Below are positions 1-12,009 of a stretch of 64,000 nt of DNA, piece by piece; position 1 is the first letter of the stretch; the number at the start of each line of letters is the position of its first letter. Origin of the DNA: an uncultured Bacilli bacterium (GTDB lineage: Bacteria > Bacillota_I > Bacilli_A > RF39 > UBA660). Below the pieces are notes generated by a model. It worked only from the letters and a program-made list of their open reading frames with translations, made no database searches and had not been told where the DNA came from. Both the position numbers and the translations under genes were made by a program. The DNA lies in the NCBI GenBank assembly GCA_910585915.1, contig CAJUGF010000001.1, forward strand, positions 4,622 through 68,621. The letters run 5' to 3'.

Positions 1-63
1 ATGATATGTTGATATTATAAATAATAAAATCAAGTAAAATAGTTGATTATAAGGAAGTATTGT

Positions 64-1548
64 ATGGAAAAGAAAAAAGTGTGGTTGTTAGTAAGTATTA
101 TGGGAGTATTTTTAGTAGCAGTGGGAGTGAGTTTTGCTCTTTGGTATATGAGGGCAGAACAAACAAGTACGAATGAAGTAATGAGTGATTGTTTTAAAAT
201 TGAATTTGAAAGTGGTATTGGTATTACTTTGAATCAAGCATATCCGATGATTGATAAAGAGGGGTTAAAAAATGATCCATATACTTTTACTTTGAAGAAT
301 ATATGTAATAGTAGTGCTAGGTATCAAATTAATTTAGAAACCTTGAATGTAAGTGGAAAAGCATTACCAGATGGATATTTAAAAGTTAATCTAGAAGAAG
401 ATGGTGTTTCAGTCATTACAACGAAGTTAGAAGAAAGTATTCAAGTGGATGTAACAATAGAAGGGGCTATGAAAGCCTATAAATTATTAACTGAAGTACT
501 GGGTCCAAACGAAGAAAAAGAATTTAATTTAAGACTATGGATGCATGAAGATGTTGGAGTAAGTGATGATAGTATGAATGCTAGTTTTGCTGGAAAAATT
601 AGTGTGACTACAAGTTATAAGAAAACGGAGCCAACCATAGCAGATGCAATAAAAAGTATGCCTATTGTAACAAGTGGGACTGGATTGTATGAAGTGAATC
701 ATCCAGAAAGTGAGTTTATTGAAGAACTTTCTCAGGAATTATCTGAAAAACAAAAAGCTAATTTAAAGATGACAGAATATCGTTATGCTGGAAGGAATCC
801 CAATAATTATGTTAGTTTTAATAATGAGTTATGGCGCATTATAGGTTTAGTAAATACCCCAGAAGGGCAACGCGTTAAAATTAGATCCACTGGTTCGGCT
901 ATCACAGCAGCGTGGAACACAAATGGATCTACTACAGAGCACGATGCGAATGAATGGGGAAATTCTACTTTGATGACCTATTTCAATCATGGGAATTATT
1001 TTAATAATAGTCTTACAAGTGAAGCTAAAGAAATGATTGATACAATTACATGGAATACAGGAAGCACAGGGGATTATAGTAATATTAATGTTATGTCTTT
1101 TTATAACTTAGAGAGAAGTAATCAAAAGAATTGTAGTACAGGAGATTCCTGTAATGACATTATAGTGAAACCTACTATTTGGAAAGGTAATGTAGCATTA
1201 ATGTATCCAAGTGATTATGGCTATTCTACAAGTGGTAATGATGCAGATCATAGGCTTACTTGTTTAAATACATCTTTAGATAGTGGATGGTTATATAATT
1301 GGAGTTGCATGAACAATTCTTGGATTTTTTATACTGCTTACATATGGACACTTACAGCAGCTGCGAGAACAAGTAGTGCCTCAGGAGTATTTGGCATGGA
1401 TCAAGGGGGACATGTATATGATTCGACTGCTTCAAGAGAAACATGGAGTTATCCAGTTGTTTATCTAAAATTAAATATCGATATTACATCGGGTGATGGG
1501 ACAGTGGGAGCGCCTTATGAGCTAACTTATAGAAATGAAGAATTATAA
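64..1548 (+). CDS. Secreted/surface-anchored protein, mosaic paralog family member (N-domain A + C-domain B)
   Basis: RBS AAGGAAG then ATG at 64. Lys-rich N-terminus then a hydrophobic segment (signal peptide or signal anchor). Residues about 30-200 resemble the N-terminus of the 49767 protein. Residues about 215-500 resemble the C-terminus of the 43215 protein (YRYAG.NPNNYV.FNNELWR.IGLVNTPEGQR.KI). Confidence 0.6.
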   Translation: MEKKKVWLLVSIMGVFLVAVGVSFALWYMRAEQTSTNEVMSDCFKIEFESGIGITLNQAYPMIDKEGLKNDPYTFTLKNICNSSARYQINLETLNVSGKALPDGYLKVNLEEDGVSVITTKLEESIQVDVTIEGAMKAYKLLTEVLGPNEEKEFNLRLWMHEDVGVSDDSMNASFAGKISVTTSYKKTEPTIADAIKSMPIVTSGTGLYEVNHPESEFIEELSQELSEKQKANLKMTEYRYAGRNPNNYVSFNNELWRIIGLVNTPEGQRVKIRSTGSAITAAWNTNGSTTEHDANEWGNSTLMTYFNHGNYFNNSLTSEAKEMIDTITWNTGSTGDYSNINVMSFYNLERSNQKNCSTGDSCNDIIVKPTIWKGNVALMYPSDYGYSTSGNDADHRLTCLNTSLDSGWLYNWSCMNNSWIFYTAYIWTLTAAARTSSASGVFGMDQGGHVYDSTASRETWSYPVVYLKLNIDITSGDGTVGAPYELTYRNEEL

Positions 1549-1617: not shown

Positions 1618-3231
1618 ATGAAATGGGTGGTAATTATGAATTTAAAGACAAGAAAGAGAATATTGGCTTCTATTTTGTCAATTACAGTACCTTTTGGGAT
1701 GAATGATATAGAATATGTTTCTAATGACATAGTGAATTCTAAAGAAAACGGGCAAAATTCAACATCGTCTGATTATCCTTTTTGTGAAAATAACACTTAT
1801 GGTGATTTCAATTTGTATGAAGCAAAGGCGTTAATGAAACAAAATTTGATTCAAGAATTTTTAGATTATTATGAAAATTTATCAATTTCTTATTATAATG
1901 CTAATATTCATTCTTCAAAAGAAGAAATATCTGCTTTTTTTCAAAATGTACAAAATAAACAGCAATGTGATTATGTTTTTGATGGTAAAGAAGAAGAATT
2001 AATTCAAACAATTCAAGCTAATTCTCGTGATGTTGCCAATGCCAATTCAAAGTATGTTTCAATTTTTGAGGGAGAAAACGAGGATCTTTCTAATTTTGTT
2101 TTTCAACGCATTCTTTCAAAAATCATTGCTCATTCCTTTAATAATGTTAATGAAGATCTTTGTCGATTTCAAGATTTAGGAATTGTATTTGGAAATGTAA
2201 ATGGCTCTACCCAGGAGCAAGGATTTAATATTTTTACTTTTATTTACAATCCAGAACAAAATATTTTGGTTTTGGATAAAGAAGCGATGGAAAAAGTTGC
2301 TTTCGCTGAAAATATTACTTATCCAGAGGAATTTGAGCATGTTTTGCTCCATGGATTAAATCGTGCACGAATGTTTTCTTGTTCTATCGATCAATTCTAT
2401 ATTCCTAGTGCCGTTCTTTTAGAAGCGGCTTCGGAAACAGAATTGTATTATTCTGAAAAGGATCAAACTGGCTATTTGAATCATTTTGGTAACTTATTAT
2501 ATTATCGAAAATTAAATCATGAAGCTCTTCTTTTGCTTCTTGGTGTGTTTCAAGAAAATTTTAGTATGGAGGAATATTATCGAGCTATTTGTGATAGTGA
2601 TGTTGCTTCATTTCAATCCTTGTTTGGATTAGAAACGAAAGAGGATGCAGTAGAGTTTTATCATATTTTAGAGTCAATGGATTTTGTTTTTCATGGTAAT
2701 GATTATTATAATCAACATTCTCAAGGATTGACTTTAAATGATACGATAAAGGAAGCGGGAATGGGATATCGTGCTAAAATATTTCAAAAATTTTTAATTT
2801 CGATGTTGCATTATAAAGAAAAGCATGTTGATTTTTCTTTGAATGACCAATTGCTATTCCTTGCTATTGCTAGAAATTTGATTATTCAAGATGTTAACTA
2901 CTATGAAAATGATAGAGCTTATTGTGATTTAGAGTTTGCAAAAATGATTTATGATATGGAAGAACAATATATTTCTTTTTTGAGTCAATATTATGAAAAA
3001 AGTATTGATGCAATTCGCTATTGCGATGGAGAGAATGATTCTTTTATTGAGGATCTTGGATTATTTTATAGAGAACATCGTCAAACATATAAAGTACGAA
3101 AATTGTTTGAACAATATCCTGTTTTAAGTGTTATTTGCTATGAAAGTGAATGTAAGGTAAGAGATTATCGAAGATTTTTAGAAGAAAATGATTTTGCGAT
3201 GAAGCGAACTATTTATCAAGGAGATTTGTGA
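1618..3231 (+). CDS. Hypothetical protein, probable secreted/lipoprotein (signal-peptide-like N-terminus); start may be the ATG at 1636
   Basis: Long ORF with AT-rich codon usage matching neighbours. N-terminus KTRKRILASILSITVPFG is signal-like. No recognisable catalytic motifs. Confidence 0.45.
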   Translation: MKWVVIMNLKTRKRILASILSITVPFGMNDIEYVSNDIVNSKENGQNSTSSDYPFCENNTYGDFNLYEAKALMKQNLIQEFLDYYENLSISYYNANIHSSKEEISAFFQNVQNKQQCDYVFDGKEEELIQTIQANSRDVANANSKYVSIFEGENEDLSNFVFQRILSKIIAHSFNNVNEDLCRFQDLGIVFGNVNGSTQEQGFNIFTFIYNPEQNILVLDKEAMEKVAFAENITYPEEFEHVLLHGLNRARMFSCSIDQFYIPSAVLLEAASETELYYSEKDQTGYLNHFGNLLYYRKLNHEALLLLLGVFQENFSMEEYYRAICDSDVASFQSLFGLETKEDAVEFYHILESMDFVFHGNDYYNQHSQGLTLNDTIKEAGMGYRAKIFQKFLISMLHYKEKHVDFSLNDQLLFLAIARNLIIQDVNYYENDRAYCDLEFAKMIYDMEEQYISFLSQYYEKSIDAIRYCDGENDSFIEDLGLFYREHRQTYKVRKLFEQYPVLSVICYESECKVRDYRRFLEENDFAMKRTIYQGDL

Positions 3232-3490: not shown

Positions 3491-4051
3491 ATGCTTATTA
3501 ATATTAATGATATTAAAAATGGAATGACAGTTATTGTTGATGGGAATTTGTGTTTAATTCAAGAGTTTCAACATGTTAAACCTGGTAAAGGAAGTCCATT
3601 TATTAAAATTAAATTGAAAAATTTAAGAACAGGAAGTATTGTAGAAAATACTTATAATACGAATATTAAAATTGAAAGAGCACATGTAGATAAGATGCCA
3701 ATGCAGTTTTTATATGCTGATGGATCTAATTATGTATTTATGAATACAGAAACATATGAGCAATTAGAAGTTCCTGCTACTAAATTAGAAAGTGAATCTA
3801 GATTTTTAAAAGAGGGTATGGAAATTCAGATTGATCAATATGAAGGTGAAATTTTGGGGGTAACTTTACCAGAAAAGATTGAATTTGAGATTGTAGAAAC
3901 AGAACCAGCTGTCAAAGGAAATACTACGAATAATGCAATGAAGGATGCTACAATCGAAACTGGCTATGTTGTTAAAGTACCTTTGTTTATTAATCAAGGA
4001 GAAAAGATTGTTATTTCTACTAGTGATGGAAAGTATTCTGGAAGAGCTTAA
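3491..4051 (+). CDS. efp: Elongation factor P
   Basis: RBS AAGGTGA. Motif EFQHVKPGKGSPFIKIKLKNLRTGS, with the conserved KPGKG loop, and overall EF-P length and domain order. Confidence 0.93.
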   Translation: MLININDIKNGMTVIVDGNLCLIQEFQHVKPGKGSPFIKIKLKNLRTGSIVENTYNTNIKIERAHVDKMPMQFLYADGSNYVFMNTETYEQLEVPATKLESESRFLKEGMEIQIDQYEGEILGVTLPEKIEFEIVETEPAVKGNTTNNAMKDATIETGYVVKVPLFINQGEKIVISTSDGKYSGRA

Positions 4052-4065
4052 AGCTCTTTTTTTTC
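4043..4065 (+). terminator. Intrinsic terminator after efp
   Basis: Hairpin AGAGCT-taa-AGCTCT followed by a T8 run; the efp stop codon lies in the loop. Confidence 0.6.
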
Positions 4066-4100
4066 GTCATTTTTTTTGTTATACTATTTAAAATAGGGAA

Positions 4101-5774
4101 GTGTTGAGTGTGAAAGAAAATATACGCATGTTTCAAGAGTGGTATCGTCTTTGTAAGCCAAATAAAGCTTATTGGTTTTTTCAGTTTGCTACAGTAATTG
4201 TTATTAGTATTTGTTTGGTTTGTGAATCGATGTATGTAGCTAAGGTTACTACTAGTTTGGCTGAGGGAAATATTAGAATGGCAATATTTTGCTTGACACT
4301 TGGACTTTTATTTGTTTTGTTGCGTCAATTTTCTTGGATACTTAATTATAAAAATATGTATCATTTGATTGGTGATATTTATAAACGCTTGGAAATGAAA
4401 ATATTTCACAAAATAATTCATGGTAAAGAGAAAAATTTTGAAGCAATATCGAAAGAAAAATTAATTAATATTTTTCATAGTGATGCTTATGAAACCGCTA
4501 AATTTAGTGATCATATCTGTTCTAGATTTCGTTATTTGCTTTCTACATTATTAACTTTGGGTTACGTTTGTACAGTTTCTCTTCCAATTGCATTTGTTAT
4601 TCTTTTGATTATTATGGTTAATTACAAAATTCTTAATTGGATTAATGGGCGTATTAGTTTAGCAACAAAAGAAACAAAAGAAGCTGTCGATGCAGAATTT
4701 GAAACATTTTCTGAAATAATTTTATCTAAAAATATGATTGATTCTTATGATTTAACAAAGAAGATGGAACGAGAATTTCGAAAGAAAAATGATAATTTTA
4801 TGGTTCTTCAACAAAAGAAGAATATGGCTACTTCTATGTTAGAAAATAACTTTTTTGGTTATTATAAAACTGTTATTTACGGTATTACTTTGCTTTTAAT
4901 ATATTTGTTATCTTCTGGCAATCTTTCTTTAACTGTATATTTAATTGTAGTGTCTTATTTGACAGATAGTATTACAAATAGTAAAGATTTTATGGGAATT
5001 TTAACGGAATTAAAAAATGCTTATGTTACTTGTAATCGAGTTAATATTATTTTGAATTTTGATGAAAAAGAGGAGTTCTCTTTTGGTAATATTAAAGTGA
5101 ATGATATTTTGGGAGAAATAGATTTTATGAATGTTTCAGTGAATGCTTCTGAGATATTTGATTTTGAAGTGAATGATTTAAAAAATGTAAGTTTCCATAT
5201 TTCTTCCAATCAAACTGTTTTATTTCATGGAGCAAGGAGTAGTGGAAAACGAACGATATTTTATTTGCTTCGTCGGGTGATTATGCCAATGGAAGGTGAG
5301 ATATACGTTGATAAATATAAAATACAAGATTATCAGGAAAAAGTATATCGTAGAAATGTAAATTATTTAACAACTAAACCATTTTTTTATCATGGTTCTA
5401 TTCTCAGTAATTTAAAGTTAGTTCAATCAAATAATGAAAAAATAATTGATAGTTTGAAGGAAGTGGAACTATATGATTATATTATGGGTCTTCCGATGGG
5501 ATTAAAGTCAGAGGCGAATGCTTTACCACCTCGTGAGCAATATTTATTGGGGTTGGCCAGACTTTTACTTATGAATAGTGAAATTCTAGTTTTATATGAA
5601 TTTCCTAATTATTTAAGCAGTAAAGATAAGATGTTTATTAAAAATATTTTAATGAATATGCATGGTAAAAAAACCATTCTAGTGTTTTCGGCTAATGTAG
5701 ATATTGCTGATATTGCCGATCAGGTTTATGAGGTTGAACGTGGACGAGTTAATCTACATACTAAAAGAAGTTAA
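4101..5774 (+). CDS. ABC exporter-like half transporter (TMD+NBD) with degenerate ATPase motifs; start ambiguous (GTG at 4101/4110 or ATG at 4128)
   Basis: N-terminal 6-TM exporter-type domain. C-terminal NBD-like region with Walker A GARSSGKRT (K-R instead of K-S/T), signature LPPREQ instead of LSGGQ, Walker B ILVLYE (D to Y), and the H-loop His missing (TILVFSANV). Confidence 0.6.
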   Translation: MLSVKENIRMFQEWYRLCKPNKAYWFFQFATVIVISICLVCESMYVAKVTTSLAEGNIRMAIFCLTLGLLFVLLRQFSWILNYKNMYHLIGDIYKRLEMKIFHKIIHGKEKNFEAISKEKLINIFHSDAYETAKFSDHICSRFRYLLSTLLTLGYVCTVSLPIAFVILLIIMVNYKILNWINGRISLATKETKEAVDAEFETFSEIILSKNMIDSYDLTKKMEREFRKKNDNFMVLQQKKNMATSMLENNFFGYYKTVIYGITLLLIYLLSSGNLSLTVYLIVVSYLTDSITNSKDFMGILTELKNAYVTCNRVNIILNFDEKEEFSFGNIKVNDILGEIDFMNVSVNASEIFDFEVNDLKNVSFHISSNQTVLFHGARSSGKRTIFYLLRRVIMPMEGEIYVDKYKIQDYQEKVYRRNVNYLTTKPFFYHGSILSNLKLVQSNNEKIIDSLKEVELYDYIMGLPMGLKSEANALPPREQYLLGLARLLLMNSEILVLYEFPNYLSSKDKMFIKNILMNMHGKKTILVFSANVDIADIADQVYEVERGRVNLHTKRS

Positions 5775-5775
5775 A

Positions 5776-5816
5776 AATAAAAAACAAGCTTAGTTCATCT
5801 GAGCTTGTTTTTCATC
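5776..5816. terminator. Bidirectional intrinsic terminator between convergent ABC-like gene and murC
   Basis: Stem AAACAAGCT / AGCTTGTTT with an 11-nt loop, flanked by an A-run upstream and a T-run downstream. Confidence 0.6.
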
Positions 5817-11192: not shown

Positions 11193-11259
11193 GGAATTAT
11201 AATTCTCATCCTAAGAAAAAATAAAATTATACGAATTGGGAAGGAGAAAAGTGATTCTT

Positions 11260-12009
11260 ATGGTAAAACATTTTATTATTATGGGAAGTTCTTATGAAAC
11301 AAAACGAAAAATTGCATTAGATGTAGTTGGAGAAGAACGAGTTTGTGAAAAGGAAGTTCGTTCTATTATGGATTATTTGAAAGAAAATTGTCTTTTAAGT
11401 TCTATTTCTACACATATGATTATTACCGATTCTCCAACTTTTCAATCTGTACAAAATCATGATCATTTTTTTTCTAATGTTAGTCTAATTTCAACAAAAG
11501 AAGAATTTGTTAATCTAATTAATAAAGATCGATATTTAAAAGGAATTGATGTAGCTAATTATATAAAAACACGTATTTCTTGTACTCATTTAAAAATTGA
11601 AAAATTAACTTATCTTTGTTATGCTGATTATCTTTGTGCTTATCATAAGCCTTTATTTCAAGATAAAATATTCGCTTATGCTAAGGGACCAGTGGTACAA
11701 TCCGTTTATCGAAAGTTTAAAGGCATAAAATCTTTATTAAATGTGAGTGAGGATGATAAGAAGGAATATTCTAATAAAAGTGCTTATATGTCTGTACGTA
11801 GTAGAATTATGGTTTCAGAAGATGGATTATATAAATTGGATAGTATTAATAAAACTTTAGAGAAGTATGGCCATTTGAAAGGTCAAGAATTAGTAGAATT
11901 GACACATAGAGTGGATAGTCCATGGGTTTATTCGGGAAGTGGAAAGAAAAAATATCAAAAAATTACAGATGATATTATTTTGAAATATCATTGTAATGAG
12001 ATTCTTTGA
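11260..12009 (+). CDS. Panacea/GepA-like (DUF4065) domain protein, solo; ORF track starts at 11236 (TTG)
   Basis: Core LKIEKLTYLCYADYLCAYHKPLFQDKIFAYAKGPVVQSVYRKFKG closely matches the Panacea/SocA-GepA domain consensus (KLQKLLYyaq ... PLF.d.i.AW.yGPVvpsvY). Flanked by novel N- and C-terminal extensions. RBS GGAAGGAG. Confidence 0.75.
   Translation: MVKHFIIMGSSYETKRKIALDVVGEERVCEKEVRSIMDYLKENCLLSSISTHMIITDSPTFQSVQNHDHFFSNVSLISTKEEFVNLINKDRYLKGIDVANYIKTRISCTHLKIEKLTYLCYADYLCAYHKPLFQDKIFAYAKGPVVQSVYRKFKGIKSLLNVSEDDKKEYSNKSAYMSVRSRIMVSEDGLYKLDSINKTLEKYGHLKGQELVELTHRVDSPWVYSGSGKKKYQKITDDIILKYHCNEIL

What the first reader, a model, noticed from the sequence alone, without database searches (positions are those of the whole stretch)
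4101..5774. ABC exporter half-transporter with every catalytic ATPase motif degenerate
The TMD looks like a type-I exporter. In the NBD, Walker A is GARSSGKRT, the signature is LPPREQ, the Walker B Asp is replaced (ILVLYE) and the H-loop His is absent. Such dead NBD halves normally function only as the non-catalytic partner of a heterodimeric ABC exporter. No partner gene is adjacent, since the gene is flanked by efp and a convergent murC. Either a partner is encoded elsewhere, or the protein has lost transport function and acts as a scaffold or sensor, as some Bce- or bacteriocin-type ABC relics do.
Basis: seen in the sequence. Interest (0 to 1): 0.5.

Follow-up and report, generated by a model that had tools for sequence, protein, structure and literature searches.

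The report
Conserved ABC exporter with dead ATPase
This gene encodes an MsbA/Sav1866-type ABC exporter whose ATP-burning domain has lost every catalytic residue, yet it belongs to a large, strongly conserved and undescribed family in uncultured gut Firmicutes, so it appears to be a working membrane protein that no longer runs on ATP hydrolysis.

Summary
ORF 4101-5774 (the real start is probably GTG 4110, giving 554 aa) has the type IV ABC half-transporter fold. Its A-loop, Walker A Ser, Q-loop, signature, Walker B Asp, D-loop and H-loop are all non-consensus.

This is not decay. The protein belongs to a single clade of about 50-60 clusters at 50% identity, all from uncultured Bacilli/Firmicutes MAGs. 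Every member has G-x4-G-K-R in place of GK[ST] and Y-E-x-P in place of D-E-x-T. The other former motifs drift freely.

The gene is under purifying selection (dN/dS about 0.1). It is as conserved as the neighbouring murC, rsmH and pbp genes. In 8 distinct genomic contexts it is always alone, with no second PF00664 gene nearby.

Both the P-loop side and the signature side are degenerate, so both composite ATP sites would be non-consensus in any dimer. The "silent half of a heterodimer" reading therefore fits poorly.

My best reading is a homodimeric pseudo-ATPase exporter-fold protein that works without ATP hydrolysis. Repeated neighbours (plsX, plsC-like, uppS/cdsA, O-antigen ligase, the dcw cluster) hint at an envelope or lipid role. 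That function is inferred, not shown.

The parts
4110..5774 (+). Coding sequence of the dead-NBD ABC half-transporter homologue (554 aa plus stop). The mechanical ORF starts at GTG 4101, but GTG 4110 is the likely start.
   Evidence: ORF list. Orthologues start with ATG at the equivalent of 4110, and AGGGA at 4095-4099 serves as RBS. Pfam ABC_membrane and ABC_tran both pass their cutoffs.
4110..5069 (+). Elbow helix plus six long transmembrane helices (residues 1-320) with two coupling helices. ICL1 is at 4428-4490 (EKNFEAISKEKLINIFHSDAY) and ICL2 at 4722-4751.
   Evidence: AF2 secondary structure. Foldseek TM-score 0.78-0.85 to TM287/288, TmrAB and MsbA. ICL1 is among the most conserved stretches, 0.79.
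4938..4958 (+). TM6 outer end, YLIVVSY. Tyr277 and Tyr283 are invariant across the whole dead-NBD family. Tyr277 is family-specific (canonical relatives have Leu).
5115..5771 (+). Pseudo-NBD (residues 336-554). The RecA-like and helical subdomains are retained. The C-terminal helix of canonical exporters is absent.
   Evidence: ABC_tran scores 45.6 bits against 100-123 for canonical relatives.
5229..5255 (+). Former Walker A, GARSSGKRT. Gly374, Gly379, Lys380 and Arg381 are 100% conserved in the family. Arg381 replaces the Mg2+-binding Ser/Thr.
5364..5381 (+). Former Q-loop, YLTTKP (Gln->Thr422). This position is variable across the broad family.
5523..5543 (+). Former signature, LPPREQY in place of LSGGQxQ, preceded by a 4-residue X-loop deletion. 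Residues 473-476 drift freely. Position 478 is always Tyr or Phe.
5583..5618 (+). Former Walker B and D-loop, ILVLYEFPNYLS. Tyr496 (was Asp), Glu497 (catalytic Glu kept) and Pro499 (was Thr) are 100% conserved. The D-loop Asp is lost.
5682..5699 (+). Former H-loop, VFSANV (His->Ala528). Phe526 is invariant. The His position varies across the family (Ala 29, His 8, Ser 6 of 52).
4040..4060 (+). Terminator-like hairpin plus T-run at the end of efp.
   Evidence: consensus scan only.
4077..4085 (+). TGtTATACT, an extended -10-like element upstream of the gene. It suggests the gene has its own promoter.
   Evidence: Read from the sequence. This is a consensus resemblance only.
5780..5812 (.). 14-bp inverted repeat between the gene and the convergent murC. 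It is a probable bidirectional terminator.

Best explanation
**Shown.**
- The gene encodes a type IV (Sav1866/MsbA-like) ABC half-transporter homologue.
- In its NBD the Mg2+ ligands are replaced (Walker A Ser->Arg, Walker B Asp->Tyr, Q-loop Gln lost).
- The residues that act in trans or in catalysis (signature, D-loop Asp, H-loop His, A-loop aromatic) are also lost.
- It belongs to one monophyletic, undescribed clade found only in uncultured low-GC Firmicutes/Bacilli MAGs.
- G-x4-G-K-R and Y-E-x-P are invariant in that clade, while the other former motifs drift.
- The gene is under purifying selection at housekeeping-like rates.
- It is always a singleton gene.

**Inferred.**
- P-loop side and signature side are both degenerate, so no dimer containing it can form a consensus ATP site. 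It is therefore a pseudo-ATPase, not the silent half of a classical heterodimer.
- It most likely forms a homodimer whose function does not depend on ATP hydrolysis.
- The NBD is kept as a cytoplasmic structural or regulatory module docked on the still highly conserved coupling helices.
- The fixed Lys-Arg / Tyr-Glu cluster either fills the old nucleotide pocket or binds a phosphate-bearing ligand without Mg2+.

**Most speculative step.** The TMD dimer provides facilitated, ATP-independent (equilibrative or PMF-coupled) movement or handling of a membrane lipid or lipid-linked envelope precursor. Envelope and lipid genes recur next to it.
For: **Fold and domains.**

**Motif positions against ABCB1, Sav1866 and MsbA.**

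**Family.**
- About 58 clusters at 90% identity, from 99% down to 36% identity, keep the same replacements.
- An exhaustive profile search finds about 50 representatives at 50% identity with the full GKR/YExP hallmark, plus 19 partial ones.
- An NJ tree with motif columns masked puts 42 hallmark and 15 partial sequences in one clade, with 0 of 51 canonical sequences inside.

**Constraint.**
- dN/dS is 0.08-0.15 overall, 0.04-0.11 in the TMD and 0.14-0.26 in the NBD.
- Mean conservation is 0.63 in the NBD and 0.62 in the TMD. The peaks are at the former Walker A (0.83), former Walker B (0.77), ICL1 (0.79) and the TM6-NBD linker (0.79).
- Window versus L001-L003 identity is 78-79% for this gene, against murC 68-69%, rsmH 70-74% and pbp 74-77%.

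**Invariant residues across the broad family.** G374, G379, K380, R381, G396, Y496, E497, P499, F526, Y277 and Y283.

**Composite-site logic.** One site is Walker A/B and the A-, Q- and H-loops of one NBD plus the signature and X-loop of the other (PMC7756269).

**Singleton status.** No PF00664 partner appears in any of the sampled contexts or in the 64 kb window.

**Envelope and lipid neighbours.**
- dcw cluster (window; L001-L003 and L008).
- O-antigen-ligase/GT/Wzm-Wzt cluster (L010).
- PlsC-like acyltransferase (L012, L017).
- rpmF-X-plsX, with the stop codon overlapping the plsX start by 8 nt (L016).
- uppS-cdsA-rseP-hyp-X-floA (L018).

**Precedent for an ABC-exporter-like TMD working without ATP.** SbmA/BacA, and LmrA lacking its NBD (PMC8442886; PMC13316013).
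Against: - No biochemical data exist. Homodimerisation, absence of ATP binding and any transport activity are all inferred.
- The P-loop glycines and Lys are conserved as strictly as in real ATPases. This could mean a nucleotide or phosphate ligand is still bound, so a binding-driven switch cannot be excluded.
- Whole genomes could not be searched, so a partner encoded elsewhere is not excluded.
- The neighbourhood signal for lipid or envelope function is anecdotal. Other contexts are lexA, smpB and an MFS gene, and X is often in housekeeping regions where such genes are common.
- No conserved acidic 'ladder' for proton coupling was found. E39 is conserved only in the narrow clade.
- dS is near saturation (about 1-1.5), so the dN/dS values are approximate.
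Confidence: 0.6

Rival explanations
1. It is the non-catalytic subunit of a heterodimeric ABC exporter whose canonical partner is encoded elsewhere in the genome. The partner would supply the only ATPase activity.
For: - Heterodimeric exporters with one degenerate site are common in Firmicutes (BmrCD, LmrCD, PatAB, EfrCD; review).
- The coupling helices are highly conserved, as expected if NBD-TMD communication still matters.
- Whole genomes could not be searched.
Against: - The signature motif of this protein would have to complete the partner's active site. It is LPPRE here and varies freely across the family, so the partner's site would also be non-consensus (site composition: PMC7756269).
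- No PF00664 gene is adjacent in 8 distinct contexts spanning 22-99% identity, nor within 64 kb here. By general knowledge, bacterial heterodimer genes are almost always adjacent.
- The D-loop that mediates cross-talk between sites is lost.
Confidence: 0.13
2. It is a nucleotide- or phosphate-sensing switch. The P-loop still binds ATP or another phosphorylated ligand without Mg2+, with Arg381 taking the place of the metal. Binding, not hydrolysis, gates or regulates the TMD, in the manner of the degenerate site of CFTR/SUR.
For: - Gly374, Gly379 and Lys380 are 100% conserved, and two extra basic residues (Arg/Lys376, Arg381) are fixed in the P-loop, while all three Mg2+ ligands are replaced.
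- Degenerate sites of ABCC proteins bind ATP stably without hydrolysis (PMC7756269).
Against: - The A-loop aromatic residue is lost and that position is variable, so there is no adenine stacking.
- The signature is lost, so there is no ATP sandwich to drive NBD closure.
- Seven sub-lineages nested inside the clade have lost the P-loop Gly/Lys altogether yet keep full-length proteins. This suggests the core function survives without a P-loop.
Confidence: 0.2
3. It is a decaying relic or pseudogene of an MsbA-like exporter with no remaining function.
For: Every catalytic motif is non-consensus and the ABC_tran score is low (45.6 bits).
Against: - The reading frame is intact in more than 100 clusters.
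- dN/dS is about 0.1.
- The gene is more conserved than the neighbouring murC and rsmH.
- The replacement residues are themselves invariant down to about 22% identity.
- Synteny is retained.
Confidence: 0.02
4. The motifs were mis-assigned, and intact Walker A/B motifs exist elsewhere in the NBD.
For: None found.
Against: - Two independent alignments (phmmer to PDB chains; MAFFT with five canonical exporters) place every motif at the same residues.
- A regex scan of all six frames finds no G..G.GK[ST] or LSGG in the window.
Confidence: 0.01

Closest known systems
Homodimeric type IV ABC exporters (MsbA, Sav1866, BmrA/LmrA)
   Same: - Same domain order (elbow helix, 6 TM helices with two coupling helices, C-terminal NBD).
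- Same fold, TM-score about 0.8-0.85.
- Single gene, so presumably a homodimer.
- The best NCBIfam hit is MsbA_lipidA.
   Different: - All ATP-site motifs are non-consensus.
- There is a 4-residue X-loop deletion and no C-terminal helix.
- The MsbA model scores 119 bits against a cutoff of 602.
- It cannot be an ATP-hydrolysing pump.
Heterodimeric ABC exporters with one degenerate site (TM287/288, TmrAB, BmrCD, LmrCD, PatAB)
   Same: - Best structural matches.
- They contain an NBD with non-catalytic substitutions in Walker B and the H-loop.
   Different: - In those systems the two genes are adjacent, only one composite site is degenerate, and the silent subunit keeps Walker A Ser/Thr, Walker B Asp and a consensus signature.
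- Here one polypeptide is degenerate on both faces, the Mg2+ ligands are gone, and no partner gene is nearby.
SbmA/BacA (SLiPT) proton-driven peptide transporters
   Same: An ABC-exporter-like TMD dimer that works without ATP. This shows the fold can run on another energy source (PMC8442886, PMC13316013).
   Different: - SbmA has no NBD and no coupling helices, and it carries a conserved glutamate ladder.
- This family keeps a full, constrained NBD and highly conserved coupling helices, and has no conserved acidic ladder.
- There is no Pfam SbmA_BacA hit.
- It would be an intermediate state, not a member.
Regulatory or channel ABC proteins (CFTR, SUR)
   Same: ABC exporter fold used for something other than pumping. 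They have degenerate sites that bind but do not hydrolyse ATP (PMC7756269).
   Different: They retain one consensus, hydrolysing site and are full-length eukaryotic proteins. Here no consensus site is possible.

Membership tests
ABC exporter superfamily, type IV fold (Pfam PF00664 + PF00005) | Six-helix ABC_membrane domain | tested here: met
   PF00664 scores 42.1 bits against a cutoff of 28, residues 26-288. The AF2 model has six long TM helices.
ABC exporter superfamily, type IV fold (Pfam PF00664 + PF00005) | ABC-type NBD fold fused C-terminally | tested here: met
   PF00005 scores 45.6 bits against a cutoff of 25. Foldseek gives TM-score 0.78-0.85 over 550-570 columns to TM287/288, TmrAB and MsbA.
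Catalytically competent ABC ATPase | Walker A GxxGxGK[ST] | tested here: not met
   The sequence is GARSSGKRT. The Ser/Thr is Arg, invariant in the family.
Catalytically competent ABC ATPase | Walker B hhhhD-E | tested here: not met
   The sequence is ILVLYE. Asp is replaced by Tyr, invariant in the family, and Glu is kept.
Catalytically competent ABC ATPase | Signature LSGGQ | tested here: not met
   The sequence is LPPRE, after a 4-residue deletion. These residues vary across the family.
Catalytically competent ABC ATPase | Q-loop Gln, H-loop His, D-loop Asp, A-loop aromatic | tested here: not met
   The residues are Thr, Ala, Ser and Ala respectively.
Heterodimeric ABC exporter with one degenerate site (TM287/288 type) | Two half-transporter genes in one operon | tested here: not met
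   There is no second PF00664 gene in the 64 kb window or in the 8 distinct contexts sampled.
Heterodimeric ABC exporter with one degenerate site (TM287/288 type) | The silent subunit retains a consensus signature to complete the partner's active site | tested here: not met
   The signature is LPPRE and varies across the family. Site composition is from PMC7756269.
Heterodimeric ABC exporter with one degenerate site (TM287/288 type) | Physical heterodimer with a canonical half | not testable with these tools
   This needs a whole-genome census and biochemistry.
MsbA lipid A flippase (TIGR02203 / NF008381) | Score at or above the equivalog cutoff | tested here: not met
   118.8 bits against 602, and 75.7 against 867.
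Peptidase-containing bacteriocin exporters (PCAT, TIGR01193) | N-terminal C39 peptidase domain and a score at or above the cutoff | tested here: not met
   There is no peptidase domain. The protein starts at the elbow helix. The score is 91.5 against 523.85.
Bce-type ABC sensor/transporters | FtsX-type permease with a separate ATPase subunit | tested here: not met
   Pfam finds only ABC_membrane and ABC_tran in one chain. The fold is type IV, not MacB/FtsX-like.
SbmA/BacA (SLiPT) | Exporter-like TMD without NBD or coupling helices, plus a glutamate ladder | tested here: not met
   The NBD and conserved coupling helices are present. There is no conserved acidic ladder and no PF05992 hit.

The most novel reading that the evidence does not exclude
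The family is an ATP-independent lipid or lipid-linked-precursor scramblase/flippase derived from an MsbA-like pump. It would be a living intermediate between ABC exporters and NBD-less secondary transporters such as SbmA. In these Firmicutes it could supply the long-sought 'biogenic membrane' flippase activity. The fossil NBD, held by a Lys-Arg/Tyr-Glu cluster instead of Mg-ATP, would serve as a permanent clamp or a regulatory platform.
Probability: 0.15. Interest if true: 0.85.

Novelty: new variant of a known kind. Interest (0 to 1): 0.6.

Why it matters
Current thinking holds that an ABC exporter needs at least one consensus ATP site. Degenerate sites are understood only as the partner of an active one.

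Here a large, ancient clade of single-gene exporters conserved at housekeeping rates has both faces of the NBD dead, yet the P-loop and Walker B positions are re-fixed to new residues (GKR, YExP). Three consequences would follow.

1. It would be a natural experiment on what the exporter fold and its NBD do without ATP hydrolysis.
2. It would be a possible evolutionary bridge to SbmA-type secondary transporters.
3. It would be a candidate for an unassigned envelope or lipid function in poorly known gut Bacilli lineages.

On the practical side, every database copy is annotated 'ABC transporter ATP-binding protein' or 'multidrug transport system ATPase/permease'. That annotation is misleading.

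Tried and rejected
**Rejected on evidence**
- Motif mis-assignment: two independent alignments agree.
- Pseudogene or decay: dN/dS, neighbour-rate comparison and invariant replacement residues all speak against it.
- Partner within the window: a regex for Walker A and signature in six frames, and phmmer of X, MsbA and P0061 against all window ORFs of at least 80 aa, found only the gene itself.
- Proton-coupling 'glutamate ladder' idea: TM1 Glu39 is conserved only in the narrow clade, and no conserved membrane acidic residues exist family-wide.

**Searches that led nowhere**
- Named or cultured organisms carrying the family: two cluster look-ups and a profile search returned only MAG or metagenome entries with generic names.
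- Literature precedent for an exporter family with both sites dead: four full-text searches found none. The absence is limited to the held library.
- Rfam on the window: no hits.

**Limited by the tools**
- Foldseek against AFDB50 was not available on the machine.
- The genome-contig scan returned only 3 close orthologous loci plus 2 canonical ABCs. Whole MAGs could not be fetched, so no genome-wide partner census was possible.
- A concatenated homodimer AF2 model was considered and not run.
Full report
**1. The observation**

The ORF 4101-5774 (+) exists and is 557 aa. Pfam finds ABC_membrane (residues 26-288, 42.1 bits) and ABC_tran (360-498, 45.6 bits), both above the gathering cutoffs. The ABC_tran score is less than half that of canonical relatives: 100.3 bits for P0061 and 122.8 for H. 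influenzae MsbA. Other family members score 45-46 bits.

phmmer against PDB sequences aligns the protein end to end with ABCB1, Sav1866, MsbA, TM287/288, TmrAB, BmrCD and PCAT1. A MAFFT alignment with five canonical exporters gives the same motif positions.

From here I number from the likely true start, GTG 4110 (554 aa). Add 3 to get the finding's numbering.
- A-loop: Tyr->Ala346.
- Walker A: G374-A-R-S-S-G379-K380-R381-T. Lys is kept and the Mg-binding Ser/Thr is Arg.
- Q-loop: Gln->Thr422.
- Signature: LSGGQ->LPPRE (472-476), after a 4-residue X-loop deletion.
- Walker B: Asp->Tyr496, with Glu497 kept.
- D-loop: SALD->NYLS, with Pro499 replacing the Thr after Walker B.
- H-loop: His->Ala528.
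- The C-terminal helix of about 25 residues is absent.

No canonical Walker A or LSGG occurs in any frame of the 64 kb window. No other window ORF resembles this protein, MsbA or P0061. The neighbours are rpmG, efp, X, a convergent murC, then mraZ-rsmH-ftsL-pbp(PASTA).

The gene looks like its own transcription unit:
- a terminator-like hairpin at 4040-4060;
- TGtTATACT at 4077-4085;
- AGGGA at 4095-4099;
- a 14-bp inverted repeat at 5780-5812 shared with murC.

Orthologues begin with ATG at the equivalent of 4110.

**2. Fold**

An AlphaFold2 model built on 30 family sequences is confident (pLDDT 86.4, pTM 0.75). It has an elbow helix, six long TM helices, two short coupling helices and an alpha/beta NBD. 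Foldseek against the PDB gives TM-scores of 0.78-0.85 to TM287/288, TmrAB, MsbA, PCAT1, TAP and ABCB10.

**3. It is a family, not decay**

The first protein search found about 58 clusters at 90% identity, ranging from 99% down to 36% identity to the window protein. All come from metagenomes or MAGs labelled Bacilli, Erysipelotrichaceae, 'Tenericutes', Firmicutes or Clostridia. All carry only generic names. All keep the same replacement residues: GKRT, NYLTTKP, YEFP and FSA[NS].

An exhaustive profile search of 1.84 billion representatives extends the family:
- About 50 representatives at 50% identity carry G-x4-G-K-R together with Y-E-x-P.
- 19 more carry partial or further-decayed versions.
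- The nearest canonical clade (GxSGSGKST / ISGGQKQ / LLFDEVTSSLD / ITHK) begins at about 287 bits.

An NJ tree was built with all motif columns masked. The 42 full-length hallmark sequences and 15 partial ones form one clade, and none of 51 canonical sequences falls inside it. The loss therefore happened once. It was followed by secondary loss of even the P-loop in a few sub-lineages (P0158, P0212, P0221, P0233, P0243, P0250, P0288).

Across the broad family the only 100%-conserved positions are G374, G379, K380, R381, G396, Y496, E497, P499 and F526 in the NBD, and Y277 and Y283 at the outer end of TM6. The A-loop, Q-loop, signature 473-476, D-loop and H-loop positions vary.

**4. Selection**

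Nei-Gojobori dN/dS between the window gene and orthologues in L001-L003 is 0.08-0.15 overall. It is 0.04-0.11 in the TMD and 0.14-0.26 in the NBD. dS is about 1-1.5, which is near saturation, so these values are approximate.

Mean column conservation is the same in the NBD (0.63) and the TMD (0.62). The peaks lie at the former Walker A (0.83), the signature helix and Walker B (0.77-0.78), the ICL1 coupling helix (0.79) and the TM6-NBD linker (0.79).

Identity between the window and L001-L003, compared with neighbouring genes:

| Gene | Identity to L001-L003 | Identity to L008 |
|---|---|---|
| X | 78-79% | 56% |
| murC | 68-69% | no match (absent from this locus in L008) |
| rsmH | 70-74% | 60% |
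| pbp | 74-77% | 57% |
| mraZ | 85-88% | 71% |
| efp | 91-96% | 67% |

The gene evolves like an essential housekeeping gene.

**5. Partner question**

The review PMC7756269 states that one nucleotide-binding site is formed by Walker A/B and the A-, Q- and H-loops of one NBD plus the signature and X-loop of the other. In known asymmetric exporters one composite site is degenerate, so each subunit is degenerate on one face only.

Here the same chain is degenerate on both faces, and its signature residues drift. In a homodimer, or in a heterodimer with any partner, both sites would be non-consensus.

Empirically, no second PF00664 gene is adjacent in any context sampled:
- rpmG-efp-X-(murC or metallophosphatase)-mraZ... 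(window; L001-L003 and L008/9);
- xerC-like-lexA-X-rnhA in spore-formers (L006/7/11);
- X-O-antigen-ligase-GT2-Wzt-Wzm-GTs (L010);
- PlsC-like acyltransferase next to X in two orientations (L012, L017);
- rnr-smpB-X (L013);
- hyp-X-MFS (L015);
- rpmF-X-plsX-rnc-smc-ftsY, with the X stop overlapping the plsX start (L016);
- frr-uppS-cdsA-rseP-hyp-X-floA (L018).

The closest canonical relative, P0061, is also a singleton, sitting next to an AraC/GyrI-type regulator.

**6. Mechanism**

Shown: the three Mg2+ ligands (Walker A Ser/Thr, Walker B Asp, Q-loop Gln) are all replaced. The adenine-stacking residue and the trans-acting signature are also gone. Conventional Mg-ATP binding, sandwich dimerisation and hydrolysis are therefore not expected.

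Inferred: two basic residues are fixed in the P-loop (Arg/Lys376 and Arg381) next to the retained Lys380. Tyr496 and Glu497 are also fixed. Two readings follow.
- (a) An internal Lys/Arg-Glu/Tyr network fills the former nucleotide pocket and stabilises the RecA-like core.
- (b) The site binds a phosphate-bearing ligand without Mg2+.

Reading (a) is favoured slightly, because some nested sub-lineages have lost the P-loop yet keep full-length proteins. Reading (b) is favoured by the strict conservation of the glycines.

Several former interface positions have become aromatic or hydrophobic (Tyr478, Tyr496, Phe498, Phe526). This is compatible with a nucleotide-independent NBD contact. It could not be tested without coordinates.

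The strongly conserved coupling helices indicate that the NBD is still docked on the TMD. This distinguishes the family from SbmA/BacA, which have an exporter-like TMD, are proton-driven and lack both NBDs and coupling helices (PMC8442886; PMC13316013). That paper also notes that LmrA without its NBD can be driven by the proton gradient, which is a precedent for exporter TMDs working without ATP.

No conserved acidic ladder was found here.

**7. Function**

Envelope and lipid genes recur as neighbours: the dcw cluster, an O-antigen ligase with glycosyltransferases, a PlsC-like acyltransferase, plsX (overlapping), uppS-cdsA-rseP and floA. MsbA is the best NCBIfam hit.

On that basis I propose, with low confidence (about 0.2), that the protein handles a membrane lipid or lipid-linked precursor without ATP hydrolysis. 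It could act as a scramblase-like or PMF-coupled translocator, or as a scaffold. The neighbourhood evidence is suggestive, not statistical. Three contexts (lexA, smpB, MFS) show no such link.

**8. Comparison and novelty**

The protein is a structural member of the type IV ABC exporter superfamily. It fails every test for a catalytically competent ABC ATPase. It also fails the tests for the degenerate-site heterodimer class, MsbA, PCAT, Bce-type systems and SbmA/BacA (see the membership table).

Four full-text searches found no description of an exporter family with both sites dead.

I classify it as a new variant of a known kind: a pseudo-ATPase clade of ABC exporters. Interest is moderate to high (0.6). 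The clade is surprising for ABC specialists and can be tested directly by expression and assay. Its function remains inferred, and it is confined to uncultured lineages.

Noticed in passing
window 11236-12009 (+): A 257-aa ORF with a SocA/Panacea antitoxin-like domain (PF13274, 53 bits) sits immediately after the pbp gene of the dcw cluster. This is an odd place for a toxin-antitoxin-type module. No obvious toxin partner was looked for.
   Followed up: no
window 43-1548 (+) and 1618-3231 (+): Two large ORFs (501 and 537 aa) upstream of rpmG have no Pfam hit at E<=0.001. The first has an N-terminal hydrophobic segment. The second has weak homologues (27-28% identity) at the same position in L002 and L003.
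   Followed up: partly
L015 8001-9698: The family member P0184 contains an in-frame TGA that the source translated as Trp at residue 561 (code 4). With table 11 the protein would end 5 residues early. The family may therefore extend into a UGA-recoding, Mollicutes-like lineage, or this may be a gene-calling artefact.
   Followed up: partly
L016 9685-9692: In a MAG with a 363-kb contig, the family member's stop codon overlaps the start of plsX by 8 nt (rpmF-X-plsX-rnc-smc-ftsY-ffh). This suggests translational coupling with phospholipid synthesis in that lineage.
   Followed up: partly
L001 11654-12607, L002 7127-8112, L003 11669-12817: The close orthologous loci have about 1 kb of extra sequence between X and murC. 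In the window only 15 bp separate the two genes. In L008 a metallophosphatase gene occupies the equivalent place and murC is absent from it.
   Followed up: no
proteins P0158, P0212, P0221, P0233, P0243, P0250, P0288: These sub-lineages are nested inside the dead-NBD clade and have lost even the P-loop Gly/Lys and the Tyr-Glu pair, while keeping full-length proteins. P0158 is still 41% identical to the window protein. This is a second step of NBD degeneration.
   Followed up: partly
window 1-64000: Nearly all ORFs of at least 120 aa are on the + strand and GC skew is positive throughout, consistent with a leading-strand region. GC content is about 29.5%. There are no Rfam hits at gathering threshold in 64 kb.
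   Followed up: no
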